Program-made: the position numbers and the translations under genes
Assembly: GCA_049903315.1 (NCBI GenBank)
Contig: JBNGBT010000001.1
Span: forward strand, 320,001 to 384,000
Source of the DNA: Candidatus Cloacimonadota bacterium
GTDB lineage: Bacteria; Cloacimonadota; Cloacimonadia; JGIOTU-2
Direction: 5' to 3'
Length of the DNA: 64,000 nt
Shown: positions 24,724 through 30,635 of the stretch, piece after piece
How positions within the stretch are numbered: position 1 is the stretch's first letter
Layout of the letters: each line of letters begins with the position of its first letter
Notes under the pieces: model-generated
What the model was told of the DNA's origin: nothing
Databases searched by the model: none
Seen by the model: the letters and a program-made list of their open reading frames with translations, nothing else

Positions 24724-27114
24724 TTATCGTAACTTCACGACCTTCCCGAAATGTTCATCGTTATTATTTATTTTATAGAAATATACACCCGTGCCCAATT
24801 CGTTGCCATTAGCATCCTTTCCATCCCATGTTGCTTCGAGAAAGCGGGGAAGCGAAGAAGCGCCAGAAGAAATTTCTAAATCCGATCCGCCAGCTGGCGG
24901 ACTAATGTCTAATTCTCTGACAAGTTGTCCTTTTATATTATAAATTTTGATTCGTGCTAATTCGTGTAAATTCGTGGTTAATGAAAACGATAACGTTGTC
25001 GATGTAGAGAAGGGATTAGGGTAGGAGGATAATGAAATTTCATTATTGTATATATTTTCATCATCGATCGATGTATTTATATTGTAAGAATAGATTGAAG
25101 CACACTCTTTTTGCGTGCTGATAAAATATGTATTGTTGTCTTGTGCATAAAAATTTAAAAGAGGACCCCAACTATTAAAATTGATATATTCAAAACTTTC
25201 AAGGTAACCTGAAGGATTACCGGATACATCAAATAAACCTAAAGAAAACTCATATACTTGAAACAGAATATCATCATTAATAAAGCTTGAATACAGAAAT
25301 GAGTTTTCTGTCGAAAATTGTTCTGTTAACTGAAAAGGGGTTTCAAATATATAGAATTTATCAAAGTTATCTGTGATATATGCATTGGTGTGTAAATAAT
25401 TACCAACCTTATTCATCAAAATGTGATAATTGGGACCAAAATTAGAAATTGTTTGCGCGAGGTCGGGCTCATTGTCTTCAAATCCTCCATAGATATACAA
25501 ATTTTGATAAGGTGAAGCGCTATCAAGTACATAGAAATACCCATCGTTAAATAGACCCTTGCCATTTGAAATATATGTTAACGCGTAGTCAAATAGTATT
25601 TCCGGGGTTGCCGGATCGGACATATCGTATTTTACTATTTTTTGATATGGACCAAACCACCACCAATAAAAGCAATATAACATATCCGGCTCATCTTCAT
25701 TAATAATAAGAACAGGGATCCCGAATCCACCCTCTGCTTCAAAATCAGATTGCAAAATTGGCTCATGAGGATTTGAAATATTATATAAACAGACTTTTAT
25801 TTCATTATTTCTATTAACATACGCGCTATACATTCTGTTCCCAATAAACTTGCTCCCGTAGGTTCTGCAACTGTCCAATAGTATTTTTTTAAGTTTCGGC
25901 ATATCAGTATTGGACAAATCATAGACATAAATGCCATCATTTACCATAGGAATAAAAAGATAATCATCATAGATACTAATATATTTATATCCTAATTGGT
26001 GGTTTGGATGTGTTTGTTCGTTATTTATAAATACCATTGTGCCATCATAAAAAGAGTATTTGAAAATTCCGGAATCGGGTGTGCCCCAGTATAACAAATT
26101 ATTATAGTATTTGATATTTGAATTTGTAATATATGAGGTGAGTCCTGAAAAGTTTTGCTGTTCTTCGGAGAGAGGACAAAAGGAACTAAAACATGGATTT
26201 GTAATATCGGTAATATCCACTACTTCTATTCCATCTGGTGGTTGTGGAATGATAATATAATTATCAAATCTGGTAAAATCTGCCCATTTACCGTACGATG
26301 TATAGGTATAATAATCTGTAATAAAATACCAATTATGAATATCGGATATATCCCAAAGTGCTAATGCTTCATCGCCTAATATTCCAACCGTAGTGCTGTC
26401 GATTTGCTGAATATAATTATATGTTGTAATAACAGAAGGAGTGTTGGTAAGATTGATCGTTGCTTCTATGAAAATGTTATTAATATCTGTTATGTTATAT
26501 ATTTCATAAAGAAGACTTCCATTACGAGAGGTCATGAAAAGAGAATCATTAATAGGGTAGGTTTGACAGCATATAGGCAGAGAATTAATTTCCTCAAAAT
26601 TTTCATGGTCAAGAACCAATAATGTGCCTGAAAATGAATTCTCATTATATTCACGACACATTAAATTGTCATTATAGAAGCCCAATTGATAAATTACTGA
26701 GTCATCAAAAAACAGCGAATCAACAATTATGGGATTATCAGGAGTTGTGACATCGATCTTGTATAAATAGGATCCTAAGAACAGAGACCAGGTTTGACTT
26801 GTTGTCGATGCTATATACACGAAGTTATCCTTTTTAGTAATCATATCTGTCATTCCAATAAAACCAATCGTCGCAATTCTTTCCAGGTTGCCTGTTGCAT
26901 TATCTATGCTTTGTATTTCAAGCCCATATCTGTTAACAATATACATATATGAGGAATCAATAATGATTCTATCATCTCCGCAATAATTTCCTCCAATTGC
27001 AAAATCGTTGATCTTTTCATAATTGAATTCAATAGCATATAAAAATTCTGGTAATATAAGTATAAAGAGGGTAAAAATAATTAATAAATTTATTTGTTTA
27101 TAGTGTTTAATCAT
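24724..27114 (-). CDS. Secreted LVIVD-like repeat (beta-propeller) protein with FlgD-Ig/T9SS-type CTD
   Basis: Signal peptide; YKIDVTTPDNP, GIEVVDITDITNP, GIYVYDLSN, LYNISNPHEP repeats; YPNPF..IYNIKGQLVR..WDGKD..GVYFY..KVVKLR; AGGAG RBS. Confidence 0.82.
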   Translation of the reverse strand: MIKHYKQINLLIIFTLFILILPEFLYAIEFNYEKINDFAIGGNYCGDDRIIIDSSYMYIVNRYGLEIQSIDNATGNLERIATIGFIGMTDMITKKDNFVYIASTTSQTWSLFLGSYLYKIDVTTPDNPIIVDSLFFDDSVIYQLGFYNDNLMCREYNENSFSGTLLVLDHENFEEINSLPICCQTYPINDSLFMTSRNGSLLYEIYNITDINNIFIEATINLTNTPSVITTYNYIQQIDSTTVGILGDEALALWDISDIHNWYFITDYYTYTSYGKWADFTRFDNYIIIPQPPDGIEVVDITDITNPCFSSFCPLSEEQQNFSGLTSYITNSNIKYYNNLLYWGTPDSGIFKYSFYDGTMVFINNEQTHPNHQLGYKYISIYDDYLFIPMVNDGIYVYDLSNTDMPKLKKILLDSCRTYGSKFIGNRMYSAYVNRNNEIKVCLYNISNPHEPILQSDFEAEGGFGIPVLIINEDEPDMLYCFYWWWFGPYQKIVKYDMSDPATPEILFDYALTYISNGKGLFNDGYFYVLDSASPYQNLYIYGGFEDNEPDLAQTISNFGPNYHILMNKVGNYLHTNAYITDNFDKFYIFETPFQLTEQFSTENSFLYSSFINDDILFQVYEFSLGLFDVSGNPSGYLESFEYINFNSWGPLLNFYAQDNNTYFISTQKECASIYSYNINTSIDDENIYNNEISLSSYPNPFSTSTTLSFSLTTNLHELARIKIYNIKGQLVRELDISPPAGGSDLEISSGASSLPRFLEATWDGKDANGNELGTGVYFYKINNNDEHFGKVVKLR
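24886..24981. repeat. Intergenic-type repeats embedded in frame in the CTD coding region
   Basis: Perfect 16-bp palindrome TCCGCCAGCTGGCGGA (24886-24901) and TTCGTG x3 GGTTAA (24951-24981). Confidence 0.7.
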
Positions 27115-27175: not shown

Positions 27176-27556
27176 TTATTGGTTAGGAGGTTCGGGCTCT
27201 CCCGGATCGGGCTCTTGACCAGTGGTTGGCAAATAGAGATGAACCGTGGTAAAAGGTGAAATGCCGCCAACTTCAGAATCTGAGCGATCACCTTGTTCTG
27301 CCGTTAATGACCATATTGGATACTCTTGAGAACAGTAAATATCTGGAAATGATTCTGTATAATAGCCAGTACCTGTTTCCGGAGTTTTTGAATCATATAG
27401 ATATGGTTGTTGTTCAGGGGTGTCTTGCCTGTATAGGTAAAGCGTTGGACCGCTCTTTAATACACCATGAACATATACATCTACTGATTGAGCCAATAAA
27501 TTTCCACCAATGAATAGTGTCGCTAATATCGCGAGTATCGCAATTTTTTTAAACAT
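27176..27556 (-). CDS. Small secreted hypothetical protein with Pro-rich tail
   Basis: Signal peptide MFKKIAILAILATLFIGGNLLA; GAGG RBS; ends EPDPGEPEPPNQ. Confidence 0.8.
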   Translation of the reverse strand: MFKKIAILAILATLFIGGNLLAQSVDVYVHGVLKSGPTLYLYRQDTPEQQPYLYDSKTPETGTGYYTESFPDIYCSQEYPIWSLTAEQGDRSDSEVGGISPFTTVHLYLPTTGQEPDPGEPEPPNQ

Positions 27557-27959
27557 CGTTTTTACCTCTTAATTATTTTATTCCTTTATTCTACGTTTCC
27601 CCCTTTACTACAAAGGTAATTCGTAAAGGAGTATTCCCGGCAGTCTCAATAATCCATTTCATAATTTCCTTTCTACCATGTTCGAATTTCTTGTCAATAA
27701 GAAAACCTATCTGTTTTGGGAAGAACGATAGATAGGTCTGGTCAGGTGAATTTAGTTTTATGTATACATGTATTCAGGAAATGTAAACATTCCATTTTTA
27801 TTATTTTGCCCTTGCTTAATAATTTCATGCTACTATCCCCAAACCATGGTATTTCATGGCATACCTCAATTACTACGAACCAACTAAGTTGGATTCTGCT
27901 GCAGAACATCATTATCAAAATCTTCAACGTTTCATGGAGCCGGAGAAAACTCCCGCTAA

Positions 27960-28442
27960 TCATTCTTCTGGACGAAGAATGAATCGCGGGAGAGCCATGA
28001 TTGGGGTCTCTAAAATACCTCCGTACTCCTTGGTACTCATATTTTGCACCTCGTAACTTGCTGAAAATTGGACCTCTTTATCCAAGATTGAAGTCAGTGT
28101 TGTCTCAACTGCACGAGCATAAATAGGTTTTGTCAGATATCCTGCCGGATTCGTTTGCTTTGCTTCTTCCATGGTTTCTTCATCGTTGTAAGCAGACACG
28201 AATACTACAGGGACATCCTTACTGGTGCGAATCTGTCTCGCGGCTTCGATACCGTTGATCTGCCCGGCCAGGTTAATATCCATAAATATAAGATGCGGGT
28301 CAAAAGTTTTCGAAAGCTCGACAGCATGCTCGCCGCTTGCAGCAGTAACACATTCGTATGGTCCGAAACGTTGTATAAGATTTTTCAGATGCAGTGCGAT
28401 AATTGCTTCATCTTCAACGATCAATATTTTTTGTTTATTCAT
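27960..28442 (-). CDS. Single-domain response regulator (receiver) with short C-terminal tail
   Basis: KILIVEDE, IFMDINL (phospho-Asp), VFVSAY, YLTKP; start placed at ATG 28442. Confidence 0.88.
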   Translation of the reverse strand: MNKQKILIVEDEAIIALHLKNLIQRFGPYECVTAASGEHAVELSKTFDPHLIFMDINLAGQINGIEAARQIRTSKDVPVVFVSAYNDEETMEEAKQTNPAGYLTKPIYARAVETTLTSILDKEVQFSASYEVQNMSTKEYGGILETPIMALPRFILRPEE

Positions 28443-28464: not shown

Positions 28465-28575
28465 TTACGCTTTTCCCTCGACTGATTTCCTTTCATGTCC
28501 GAGGAAAACTTTTCCATCAGAGATTATTACTATATATTCTCCGCCATTGCCGTCATGTATTCTTTTAATAGTCAT
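28465..28575 (-). CDS. Micropeptide copy 1, 36 aa (MTIKRIHDGNGGEYIVIISDGKVFLGHERKSVEGKA)
   Basis: Below ORF-track cutoff; AAGGAGA RBS; paralogous to 29099 and 29399 copies with mainly synonymous differences. Confidence 0.8.
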   Translation of the reverse strand: MTIKRIHDGNGGEYIVIISDGKVFLGHERKSVEGKA

Positions 28576-28589
28576 GTTATTCTCCTTTA

Positions 28590-28874
28590 TTATGCTTTCA
28601 TTACGTGAACAGTACCATTCACTACGATCACAATGTACTTTTCACCATTTGGTCCAATTATAGTCGCATCGAATATAATTTCATCATTGCTATCAAATAC
28701 AAGCCCTATTACAACTGGATAGTCTGTGTTTTCATCTAAATATTGAGAGATGAATTCAGCATCATCCAGGTTGCATAAAGAACGCAATTCACTTGCTGTC
28801 ATTGCAAAAGCTACCGAATTAATTAATAACAAAAATACAAGTACACCTACTAACACTAATGTTTTCTTTTTCAT
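28590..28874 (-). CDS. Small secreted protein (94 aa) with C-terminal NGxxYIVIxxxGxV motif
   Basis: Signal peptide MKKKTLVLVGVLVFLLLINSVAFA; AGGTGG RBS before ATG 28874. Confidence 0.82.
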   Translation of the reverse strand: MKKKTLVLVGVLVFLLLINSVAFAMTASELRSLCNLDDAEFISQYLDENTDYPVVIGLVFDSNDEIIFDATIIGPNGEKYIVIVVNGTVHVMKA

Positions 28875-28898
28875 TTTACTTACCACCTTTCAGGTTAT

Positions 28899-29099
28899 TT
28901 ATTTATATATCATAAAAAGTGCCGATTTGTGACGACACCACTCAAAAAAGTTGAAAAAAAGTGAAAAAAATTCATTTGAGGTGACAGAATCCTTATGAAT
29001 TATCACATTTTTCTTCTCATGTCCGAGGAATACTTTTCCTTCAGAGATAATCACGATGTACTCTCCACCGTTTCCGTCATGAATTCTTTTAATAGTCAT
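28899..29099 (-). CDS. Micropeptide copy 2 (core 30 aa; reads through to 66 aa)
   Basis: AGGAGA RBS; MTIKRIHDGNGGEYIVIISEGKVFLGHEKK core. Confidence 0.75.
   Translation of the reverse strand: MTIKRIHDGNGGEYIVIISEGKVFLGHEKKNVIIHKDSVTSNEFFSLFFNFFEWCRHKSALFMIYK
28903..28985 (-). promoter_or_regulatory. Conserved promoter-like element, copy A (GTCACA-N16-GATATATA with three 10-bp-phased A-tracts upstream)
   Basis: Near-identical to 29202-29285; GTCACA at 28933-28928; lies about 30 nt upstream of the 28874 start. Confidence 0.6.
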
Positions 29100-29201
29100 T
29101 TTATTCTCCTATTATTTTTTTAATTTGCTAAGTTCCAAATTATTGCCAGCCATTTTCATGTAATTTTTTATAATCACAAGAATCATTTCTCTAATTTTTA
29201 C

Positions 29202-29285
29202 TTATATATCATGAAAAGTGCCGATTTGTGACGACACCACTCAAAAAAGTTGAAAAAAAATGAAAAAAGTTACATATGAGGTGAC
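29202..29285 (-). promoter_or_regulatory. Conserved promoter-like element, copy B
   Basis: GTCACA at 29232-29227, same spacing to GATATATA and same A-tracts as copy A. Confidence 0.6.
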
Positions 29286-29294
29286 TAAACCTTA

Positions 29295-29399
29295 TTAATT
29301 TTTATTATTTTTCTTCTCATGTCCGAGAAATACTTTTCCTTCAGAGACAATAACAGTGTATTCTCCGCCATTGCCGTCAGGAAATCTTTTTATGGTCAT
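29295..29399 (-). CDS. Micropeptide copy 3, 34 aa (MTIKRFPDGNGGEYTVIVSEGKVFLGHEKKNNKN)
   Basis: Below ORF-track cutoff; AAGGAGA RBS; tandem TAA TAA stops. Confidence 0.8.
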   Translation of the reverse strand: MTIKRFPDGNGGEYTVIVSEGKVFLGHEKKNNKN

Positions 29400-29654
29400 G
29401 GTGTTCTCCTTATCGTATTTTTGGGATTCATTTTGTATAATAGCCCTAAAATATTGACAGTTATTTTTAACTTTTCTTGGTACACATAAATTATAGATTT
29501 TATAATCTTATGATTTAAAAACATCGGTAACGCTCAAAAAAGTAAGAATGAGAATAGGCATTGAGGTCTTTTTTCTTGATCATCAAAAATTTCTTTCAAG
29601 TTAATTATTTCTTTAATGAATTGTGCAGATTGAGGTGAGATTGCTAAACATAAG

Positions 29655-30635
29655 ATGAAAAAAAAAGCTGATAATGATGCTGTTGTTCTGAAGAATTATC
29701 ATACTCTTGCCTACAATTATGCATTATACAAAGTTGGAAGTCTCGATGCAGCAGAGGATATAGCATCTCAGACGATTTATTCATATTTATTGAAAAGGGA
29801 AAAGATTGAAGAAAACAATGATGAGGGTTGGATTGTTAATACTAGTAAAAATTATTGTAATCAGTATTTTGATAGATTGAAGGCTGAAAAGAAATTGCAG
29901 AACGATATGGTTGGGAATATGGCAAGAGAACTGCAAACAAAAATATATGAGAGCCTTGATTTTGTTGATAATGAAAAAAACGAGCTCTTAGATGCCGTAA
30001 AAAATGCTAAAGAGACACTCACTTCCAAGGAACTTCAAACCTATATCTTATACCTTCAATGTGAAGCAAATGTACAGAGGATGGAAAAAATAATTGGTGA
30101 GTCCAATGAGGTTATCCGACAAAGGATCTCCAGGATCAATAGGAAAATAAAGGCAGAAACCTACAAAAAGCTTGGGGTAATAACCACCAAGAAAATATTA
30201 AGTCCTCAGATCAATGATATAATAAAAAAATTTCTTTTGCGATTTAAAAAGCATTTGGAAAATAATACACTGAATAAGATGTTTTATTATTTTTCGAAAA
30301 AAGATATTAGTAATTATAATCCCCAATTTAATATAAAAAAAGTATTGGATTATGAGGTAGTACTAGACGATGCAATATATACAATTCATGTAGTTTTTAC
30401 TAATACACAAGATGAGGATGAATCCTTCTATTTTTCGTTTACAGTGGAAAATAATTTTCTAAAAGTTCTTCAACCTCCCACACCTCACAGAGAACATTAT
30501 CAATTAAGCGGTGAAGATGCAGAAATACTTCTTACCTTATTAAAAAAATATCCCGAAGATAGTACAGGAGCACATCGTGTTCCCGATGAAGAACTTGTGC
30601 TTCTAAGAAGAATTCTTGGGGAAGAGGATGAATGA
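29655..30635 (+). CDS. ECF-type sigma-70 factor with about 150-aa C-terminal extension
   Basis: Region 2-like LAYNYALYKVGSLDAAEDIASQT...WIVNTSKNYC; region 4-like LTSKELQTYILY...MEKIIGESNEVIRQRISRINRKIK. Confidence 0.75.
   Translation: MKKKADNDAVVLKNYHTLAYNYALYKVGSLDAAEDIASQTIYSYLLKREKIEENNDEGWIVNTSKNYCNQYFDRLKAEKKLQNDMVGNMARELQTKIYESLDFVDNEKNELLDAVKNAKETLTSKELQTYILYLQCEANVQRMEKIIGESNEVIRQRISRINRKIKAETYKKLGVITTKKILSPQINDIIKKFLLRFKKHLENNTLNKMFYYFSKKDISNYNPQFNIKKVLDYEVVLDDAIYTIHVVFTNTQDEDESFYFSFTVENNFLKVLQPPTPHREHYQLSGEDAEILLTLLKKYPEDSTGAHRVPDEELVLLRRILGEEDE

What the first reader, a model, noticed from the sequence alone, without database searches (positions are those of the whole stretch)
28465..29399. 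Three paralogous 30-aa-core micropeptides under apparent purifying selection; two are missed by the ORF track
Seen: ORFs at 28575, 29099 and 29399, each with an AGGAGA RBS. Over the first 30 codons, copies 1 and 2 differ at 13 codons. Eleven changes are synonymous and two are conservative (D/E, R/K). Copy 3 adds IH>FP, I>T and I>V. This pattern is strong evidence that they are translated and constrained. The C-terminal tails are unconstrained. No signal peptide, Cys or nearby modifying enzyme is present.
Basis: seen in the sequence. Interest (0 to 1): 0.8.

Follow-up and report, generated by a model that had tools for sequence, protein, structure and literature searches.

The report
Micropeptide twins of a sigma partner
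Three tiny, strongly conserved genes in an uncultured Cloacimonadota bacterium are signal-less copies of the tail of a small exported protein that sits beside an unusual sigma factor, and they probably tune that sigma factor, which appears to switch on genes for exported surface proteins.

Summary
The three minus-strand ORFs are real. Copies 1 and 2 differ at 11 synonymous and 2 conservative codons; across 27 distinct homologous cores dN/dS is about 0.09.

They are not orphans. Each matches the C-terminal beta-meander of the neighbouring 94-aa signal-peptide protein (hhalign 90-92%). They belong to a Cloacimonadota module: a divergent ECF-type sigma with an NTF2/SnoaL-like C-terminal domain, a promoter-like motif (GTGGTGKCGTCACA-N16-GATAT), the small exported protein, the micropeptide and a lone receiver (REC) protein.

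In 23 of 30 exported-gene loci a 23-36-aa micropeptide starts 1-17 nt after the stop. Elsewhere the motif precedes exported-protein genes. ORF1, next to REC, was intact in every copy seen. ORF2 and ORF3 are later duplicates, broken in three genomes.

Best guess (0.4): the peptides are non-exportable copies of a sigma-binding regulator, most likely inhibitory feedback. A complex prediction gave only weak support (0.45 against control 0.00). Translation, binding and the sign of regulation are unproven. This is a new variant of ECFs with fused regulatory domains; an earlier unchecked AI note saw the module in another genome.

The parts
28465..28575 (-). Micropeptide ORF1 (36 aa), the core copy between the exported gene and REC
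   Evidence: starts 14 nt after the exported gene's stop, ends 22 nt before the REC ATG
28899..29099 (-). Micropeptide ORF2 (about 30-aa core; 66 aa by read-through into the promoter-like element)
   Evidence: ORF2-like copies omega 0.11 (3 sequences)
29295..29399 (-). Micropeptide ORF3 (34 aa)
   Evidence: ORF3-like copies omega 0.21 (4 sequences)
28590..28874 (-). 94-aa exported protein: signal-peptide-like N-terminus, acidic mature part, C-terminal 3-strand meander homologous to the micropeptide
   Evidence: Kyte-Doolittle 19-residue max 2.78 at residue 6
28898..28972 (-). Promoter-like element P, copy 1 (core 28907-28941), upstream of the exported gene
29197..29271 (-). Promoter-like element P, copy 2 (core 29206-29240), between ORF3 and ORF2
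29655..30635 (+). Divergent 326-aa ECF-type sigma factor with NTF2/SnoaL-like domain (about aa 183-282) and a short C-terminal tail
27960..28442 (-). Stand-alone receiver (REC) protein, 160 aa
   Evidence: Pfam Response_reg E 1e-22; best NCBIfam hit is the REC part of the PhyR model, below its cutoff
27176..27556 (-). 126-aa signal-peptide-like protein, downstream candidate regulon gene
   Evidence: a homolog follows a P site in G004
24724..27114 (-). 796-aa exported protein with Por_Secre_tail/FlgD-Ig C-terminal domain, candidate regulon gene

Best explanation
The micropeptides are cytoplasmic, non-exportable copies of the business end of a small exported protein that is the cognate regulator of the divergently encoded ECF-type sigma. 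SHOWN (computationally): constrained coding, homology to the exported protein's C-terminal meander, conserved gene order, and a conserved bipartite motif upstream of the module and of exported-protein genes. INFERRED: the sigma reads that motif and so transcribes the exported protein, ORF1, REC and exported surface-protein genes. The beta-meander binds the sigma and most likely damps it, closing a feedback loop (inhibitor about 60%, activator about 40% within this model). The signal-bearing version would act only while it lingers in the cytoplasm, coupling output to export capacity (FlgM-like logic). The signal-less micropeptide would set a standing level that the REC protein may relieve. ORF2 and ORF3 are later peptide-plus-promoter duplicates that add dosage and are dispensable in some lineages.
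For: Homology: hhalign peptide vs mature exported domain, prob 92%, E 6e-7 (70% and 90%). An HMM built from exported proteins only scores 27 of 29 distinct micropeptides above all 50 of their shuffles, and the other 2 above 49 of 50; the 36-aa type scores only 4-9 bits. Order: in 23 of 30 exported-gene loci (own genome included) a micropeptide starts 1-17 nt after the stop; 1 is cut by a contig end and 6 lack it. REC follows 21 of the 23 and 1 of the 6 (kin are not independent). Sigma linkage: of the 30 sigma-selected loci, 23 have the small exported gene within 1.3 kb, 2 within 2.7-6 kb, 3 are cut by contig ends and 2 lack it (hand tally); some lie directly downstream of the sigma, as anti-sigma genes do. 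Signal-less 76-aa versions sit beside a sigma in G138 and G199, and versions with a shortened hydrophobic region in L036, L037, L039 and L040, so the domain need not be exported. ORF1 has lower dN than every module gene compared in all 5 ortholog comparisons. Same-genus G001, G005 and G007 show no peptide, sigma or P match. Complex prediction sigma + ORF1: 'weak support', score 0.45 (runs 0.45, 0.44, 0.51), best of 3 controls 0.00, at least 79% contact agreement, partner pLDDT at least 69. The mark was reached by 116 of 157 solved and 2 of 215 mismatched pairs, but at 0.60 or under by only 18 of 157 solved and by both mismatches.
Against: The complex pass lies in the range the tool calls more often wrong than right unless the guess was likely beforehand, and no interface was given. 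Only the sigma was tested as partner. The sigma model is mediocre (pLDDT 68, pTM 0.33). Micropeptide presence tracks REC more tightly than it tracks the sigma, which also fits a cis role or REC binding. Six of 30 loci work without a micropeptide. A Sec-exported anti-sigma has no precedent in the papers I searched. The promoter assignment rests on position and ECF41-like -35 similarity only, and the pattern was designed on these loci. Promoter-proximal copies are broken in G002, G008 and G009, and no intact copy was found in G002 (87% complete).
Confidence: 0.4

Rival explanations
1. The micropeptide binds the REC protein (or one of the genome's HisKA_2 kinases) rather than the sigma, acting as a small connector or modulator of phosphorylation.
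For: REC follows 21 of 23 peptide loci but only 1 of 6 peptide-less loci; the genome has 10 HisKA_2 matches; one copy is fused to a REC-tail remnant in G004.
Against: The homologous exported domain is linked to the sigma even where no REC is nearby. The fusion looks like a simple deletion. Peptide-REC binding was not modelled.
Confidence: 0.17
2. Cis-acting leader: translation of the peptide (coupling, or ribosome stalling as in TnaC or SpeFL, recalled from memory) controls expression of the downstream REC gene.
For: Fixed 36-aa length and 14-22 nt spacing to a REC start with a weak SD in 20 of 20 rows; GC-rich inverted repeats between peptide and REC in several family-f8 loci (seen by eye); sizes of 24 and 36 aa are typical of leader peptides (recalled).
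Against: Copies far from any coupled gene stay under selection (omega 0.11-0.21). The homologous segment folds as a confident globular meander (pLDDT 86-89). Two loci have a peptide but no REC (one has only 267 nt of downstream sequence).
Confidence: 0.14
3. Export-side role: the meander self-assembles or chaperones the exported T9SS-tail proteins, and the cytoplasmic copy caps or modulates it; the genes are simply regulon members.
For: Both faces of the strands are hydrophobic; the regulon consists of exported proteins.
Against: The gene stays next to the sigma across families, whereas target genes are scattered; signal-less versions sit beside a sigma.
Confidence: 0.12
4. Phr-like pheromone system: the exported protein is processed, its C-terminal peptide is re-imported and activates the sigma; the micropeptide is an internal mimic or antagonist.
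For: Signal peptide + variable acidic spacer + conserved C-terminus; an NTF2-like fold can hold ligands; the gene sits under the sigma's apparent promoter.
Against: No PF00496 oligopeptide-binding protein in G000 (96% complete; control 11 of 14 genomes positive). The mature part is predicted to fold as a domain. Own-locus peptide/C-terminus pairs score no higher than cross-locus pairs in this genus (39.2 vs 39.3) and only slightly higher in family f8 (43.2 vs 40.5), so there is no clear pherotype matching.
Confidence: 0.1
5. Vestigial duplicates without function.
For: 5 broken copies among 40 hits.
Against: Omega 0.06-0.11 at dS 0.8-0.95; micropeptides also kept in a second family; the neighbouring 27-codon pseudo-ORF, as a contrast, shows 13 synonymous vs 77 non-synonymous differences.
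Confidence: 0.03

Closest known systems
ECF41 sigma factors (Wecke et al. 2012, PMC3426412; passages read)
   Same: ECF core with a large fused C-terminal extension (SnoaL-like per PMC8999054 passages); -35 element TGTCACA with a 16-bp spacer vs (C/T)GTCACA with 16 here; no membrane anti-sigma seen here.
   Different: The -10 element is GATAT/GACAT, not CGTC; there is an extended GTGGTG block; no COE enzyme neighbour; targets are exported proteins; a dedicated exported partner, micropeptide and REC are present; the score is far below the SigJ family cutoff (14.7 vs 271 bits).
ECF56 SigG1-RsfG (Oliveira et al. 2020, PMC7730460; abstract and section on RsfG read)
   Same: Sigma with a SnoaL domain controlled by a protein from the adjacent gene; SigG1 structure 7qh5 appears among the fold hits.
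   Different: RsfG is about 17 kDa. The partner here is a roughly 45-aa domain, usually with a signal peptide, plus a 23-36-aa twin. Homology to RsfG was not tested.
FlgM-sigma28 (passages in PMC13344023)
   Same: Logic only: a small exported negative regulator would couple transcription of exported substrates to export.
   Different: FlgM leaves by the flagellar type III route; here there is a Sec-type signal, a beta-rich domain and an ECF sigma, and the inhibition is unproven.
PhyR-NepR-ECF15 partner switch (passage in PMC7826278; details recalled)
   Same: Sigma + small protein + receiver; the REC's best NCBIfam hit is the PhyR receiver region.
   Different: The REC lacks the sigma-like domain; the peptide is beta, whereas NepR is helical (recalled).
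PorA-PorXY-SigP of Porphyromonas (abstract of PMC12152298; passage in PMC7826278)
   Same: A small exported protein, a response regulator and an ECF sigma feed back on T9SS-related genes.
   Different: PorA signals through a membrane kinase from the periplasm; here no kinase lies in the module and the exported protein has a cytoplasmic twin.

Membership tests
ECF41/ECF56-type sigma | ECF sigma2-sigma4 core | tested here: met
   VIA Z 10.0 (rmsd 3.4, 81 aligned) to SigW, with many ECF sigma2 hits; TIGR02937 E 1e-6 over aa 12-167, below its curated cutoff
ECF41/ECF56-type sigma | C-terminal SnoaL/NTF2-like domain | tested here: met
   Fold level only: Z 8.0 (rmsd 6.6, 107 aligned) to 3en8, Z 7.3 (rmsd 3.0, 90 aligned) to 4q53, and further NTF2 rows over aa 183-282; Foldseek rows all E>0.001
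ECF41 | Promoter TGTCACA-N16-CGTC | tested here: not met
   -35 and spacer match; the -10 block is GATAT/GACAT
ECF41 | Adjacent carboxymuconolactone decarboxylase/oxidoreductase/epimerase gene; family HMM cutoff | tested here: not met
   Neighbours are the exported gene, micropeptide, REC and mutS-like gene; SigJ NF007214 14.7 vs 271 bits
PhyR-NepR | Response regulator with fused sigma-like domain | tested here: not met
   Match covers only positions 137-250 of the 258-position model; 93 vs 240 bits
Anti-sigma factor (any class) | Direct binding to the sigma | tested here: inconclusive
   Weak predicted support, 0.45 vs control 0.00
Anti-sigma factor (any class) | Inhibition of sigma-dependent transcription | not testable with these tools
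   Needs a reporter or in vitro transcription
Phr/RRNPP peptide signalling | Signal-bearing propeptide next to the regulator | tested here: met
   94-aa protein
Phr/RRNPP peptide signalling | Opp-type re-import | tested here: not met
   No PF00496 match in G000, 96% complete; other importers not tested
Phr/RRNPP peptide signalling | TPR-type receptor | tested here: not met
   The linked regulator is sigma + NTF2-like
RiPP precursor | Adjacent modifying enzyme | tested here: inconclusive
   None among the flanking genes scanned or recognised by eye among other window ORFs; the whole window was not HMM-scanned
Ribosome-arrest leader peptide | Sequence-dependent stalling controlling the next gene | not testable with these tools
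   Needs toeprinting or Ribo-seq
Known Pfam/NCBIfam/PDB family for the peptide or domain | Significant profile or structure match | tested here: inconclusive
   No hit passing a cutoff; best structural Z 3.6; Atlas PepSY lead scored only 0.79

The most novel reading that the evidence does not exclude
A new class of ECF control in which one small beta-domain is made in two forms: a Sec-exported form that binds the sigma only when export lags (an export gauge for a regulon of exported surface proteins), and a 23-36-aa signal-less twin, whose dosage is tuned by peptide-promoter duplications and which is released by a lone receiver protein.
Probability: 0.2. Interest if true: 0.85.

Novelty: new variant of a known kind. 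Interest (0 to 1): 0.6.

Why it matters
It gives a family of unannotated 23-36-aa genes a lineage-wide context and a testable partner. The protein inputs to ECF sigmas with SnoaL/NTF2 extensions are mostly unknown: the 2022 review passage read says the regulatory function of several such groups remains to be elucidated. A synthetic 24-36-mer, one sigma and a short promoter make a minimal system for asking whether a peptide controls such a sigma. It also defines a candidate regulon for the T9SS-tail exported proteins of an uncultured phylum, and shows how micropeptide genes can arise by duplicating a domain's tail.

Tried and rejected
Fragment of a larger gene: the profile search of 1.84 billion representatives gave 16 hits, of which 5 are short stand-alone homologs (36-63 aa) and 11 are long proteins matching through many short repeats (6 of the 11 inspected). 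A longer-forms search with the exported domain gave 36 hits of 82-148 aa and no large fusion (weak evidence). P0135, listed in a peptide's cluster, is an unrelated sigma54 activator.

Programmed frameshift peptide-to-REC: frame offsets of 0, 1 and 2 all occur. Read-through exported gene-to-peptide: spacing of 1-17 nt is not kept in frame.

Sigma tail or NTF2 domain homologous to the exported domain or peptide: hhalign prob <1%.

A 27-codon ORF at 27662 as a fourth paralog: not protein-constrained.

Structured RNA: Rfam gave only a sub-threshold miRNA hit. Phage homologs: none by tblastn. Fold of the exported protein: no clear match. Atlas search for the sigma CTD: no usable hit. Expression: no RNA holder listed. 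The sigma70 promoter scan was at chance level, 11 found vs 9.6 expected. The core tree is mostly unresolved (17 of 29 inner branches open), so the order of duplication is not established.

Literature: five full-text searches listed no paper on this module; 'Cloacimon' occurs 0 times in the main text of PMC7826278 and 'sigma' 0 times in PMC8542988. Supplements were not read; the ECF group descriptions in the PMC7826278 supplement could bear on novelty.

Full report
OBSERVATION. The three minus-strand ORFs exist at the stated starts, each with AGGAGA 4 nt upstream. Copies 1 and 2 differ at 13 of 30 codons (11 synonymous, D20E, R29K); copy 3 adds I6F, H7P, I15T and I18V. Pairwise omega is 0.03-0.14 (Fisher p at most 2e-4), and no other frame shows a comparable bias. 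The window is G000:C11:320001-384000; tblastn finds no further copy in the genome. Source names on homologs place the lineage in Cloacimonadota.

HOMOLOGS. Six of 10 same-genus genomes match the peptide, a seventh has its start at a contig end, and 13 metagenome loci were added. A DNA profile over the window and 22 loci gave 40 hits: 35 intact (27 distinct) and 5 broken. Omega is 0.064 for 16 distinct REC-adjacent cores and 0.112 for 9 promoter-proximal cores, at dS 0.8-0.95. The broken copies (G002 three, G008 one, G009 one) lack the SD; three precede the promoter motif and two end at contig ends in the same sequence context. All 20 REC-adjacent rows are intact and 36 aa long. In five ortholog comparisons ORF1 has lower dN than each module gene compared, e.g. 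0.024 vs 0.07-0.16 against G004; its omega is not lowest against G006, and its dS also tends to be lower than its neighbours', so some nucleotide-level constraint or conversion is possible.

ANATOMY. On the minus strand: ORF3, element P, ORF2, element P, a 94-aa signal-peptide protein, ORF1, a lone REC protein, then a 126-aa exported protein and a 796-aa protein with a Por_Secre_tail/FlgD-Ig end. A 326-aa sigma is divergent. ORF2's 66-aa length is read-through into P. The sigma model has ECF sigma2 matches (Z 8-10) and an NTF2/SnoaL-like domain at about aa 183-282 (Z 6-8); model confidence is moderate.

THE KEY LINK. The peptide aligns with the last strands of the 94-aa protein (hhalign 70%, 90% and 92% as alignments deepened), a segment predicted as a three-strand meander at pLDDT 86-89. 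In a second family of the class the same order recurs with 23-27-aa peptides. Of the 30 best exported-gene loci from a 232-genome search, 23 have a micropeptide 1-17 nt after the stop, 1 is cut and 6 lack one; REC follows 21 of 23 and 1 of 6. An HMM from exported proteins alone ranks 27 of 29 peptides above all 50 shuffles; the window's type scores low (4-9 bits) but above nearly all its shuffles. One f8 genome also has an extra micropeptide upstream of the promoter motif, the position of ORF2/3 (G138).

SIGMA LINKAGE. Among the 30 loci chosen by the sigma search, 23 have the small exported gene within 1.3 kb, 2 further off in the same cluster, 3 are cut and 2 lack it (hand tally). In some the gene lies directly downstream of the sigma; in G138 and G199 a 76-aa version has no signal peptide. 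Same-genus G001, G005 and G007 (89-96% complete) show no peptide, sigma or P match.

PROMOTER AND REGULON. The motif GTGGYKKYGTHACA-N15-18-GAYAT occurs exactly in 21 of 232 genomes, with no reversed-pattern control hits. It was designed on these loci, so on-module sites are circular. Of the 14 positive genomes also tested for the sigma, 13 have it. G000 has 4 strong sites; the reversed genome has none. I fetched 20 loci with 21 off-module sites. One (G062, no sigma match) is not upstream of such genes. The other 20 precede genes with signal-peptide-like starts, 13 with a T9SS-type tail visible in the first or second gene (judged by eye). The -35 part and 16-bp spacer match the ECF41 promoter (TGTCACA, 16 +/- 1 bp) but the -10 does not (PMC3426412 passages).

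MECHANISM. A small gene that travels with one sigma family and sits under its apparent promoter is most simply its cognate regulator; the micropeptide is that regulator's conserved end without a signal. A sigma-ORF1 complex prediction gave weak support: 0.45 against best control 0.00, at least 79% contact agreement, partner pLDDT at least 69. The mark was reached by 116 of 157 solved and 2 of 215 mismatched pairs, but at 0.60 or under by only 18 of 157 solved and by both mismatches, so this shifts the odds little. I favour inhibitory feedback, with the exported form gauging export and REC possibly relieving the cytoplasmic form; these steps are inference. Re-import as a pheromone is weakened by the lack of an Opp-type binding protein and of locus-specific matching. 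REC binding and a cis leader role remain open because the peptide tracks REC.

COMPARISON AND NOVELTY. The sigma works like ECF41/ECF56 in architecture but fails the ECF41 promoter, neighbour and HMM tests. The REC is not a PhyR. FlgM and PorA-PorXY-SigP are analogies of logic. Papers seen: PMC3426412, PMC7826278, PMC8999054, PMC13344023 and PMC8542988 as passages; PMC7730460 abstract plus one section; PMC12152298 abstract; others as listings only; no supplements. Five searches listed nothing on this module. An earlier unchecked AI note, e1-5249943, found after my analysis, describes the same module in another genome; it agrees but is not independent support, and the lines shown do not mention the peptide-exported protein homology.

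VERDICT. Real, constrained micropeptides; a new small-protein family within a new variant of a known sigma type; mechanism plausible but unproven. Interest 0.6.

Noticed in passing
window 27580-27745 (minus strand; ATG at 27662): Conserved non-coding element upstream of exported-protein genes: an inverted repeat, TTGACA, then an invariant GGGAATACTCCTTTACGAATTACCTTT. It reads as a 23-34-codon ORF, but 6 copies show 13 synonymous vs 77 non-synonymous differences and a shifted end in the window, so it is probably a promoter/leader RNA or DNA element.
   Followed up: partly
L026:62-151, L027:8930-9019, L028:3898-3987 (G002): A broken-peptide cassette is copied nearly identically to three places behind T9SS-tail genes, all near contig ends; in L027 it is followed by P. 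It may be a mobile promoter cassette.
   Followed up: partly
G000 C33:266719-266753 (+) and C4:36071-36105 (-): Two further P sites in the own genome, each upstream of exported T9SS-tail gene clusters.
   Followed up: yes
L037:297-3275 and L036:1443-3995: The exported gene-peptide-REC cassette is duplicated on both sides of the sigma; the second copy has a shortened signal region, and in G004 the peptide is fused to a REC-tail remnant.
   Followed up: partly
L069 and L070/L091 (G044, G024): In family f5 the small exported gene is followed by a 442-aa protein that by eye resembles a radical-SAM peptide-modifying enzyme (recalled resemblance, not scanned).
   Followed up: no
L086:4535-4760 and L071 downstream of the exported gene: A different conserved 74-aa-type ORF follows the exported gene in two loci that lack the micropeptide.
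   Followed up: no
L021:7340 and L024 near 16980: In G003 and G009 a P-like site lies antisense across the sigma's own start region; it is degenerate in the window near 29600-29660.
   Followed up: partly
L052, L075, L077, L080, L081, L083 downstream of the peptide stop: GC-rich inverted repeats follow the family-f8 micropeptides, usually before REC; none is evident in the window's genus.
   Followed up: no
window 27950-27992: 19-nt inverted repeat at the REC stop, terminator-like.
   Followed up: no
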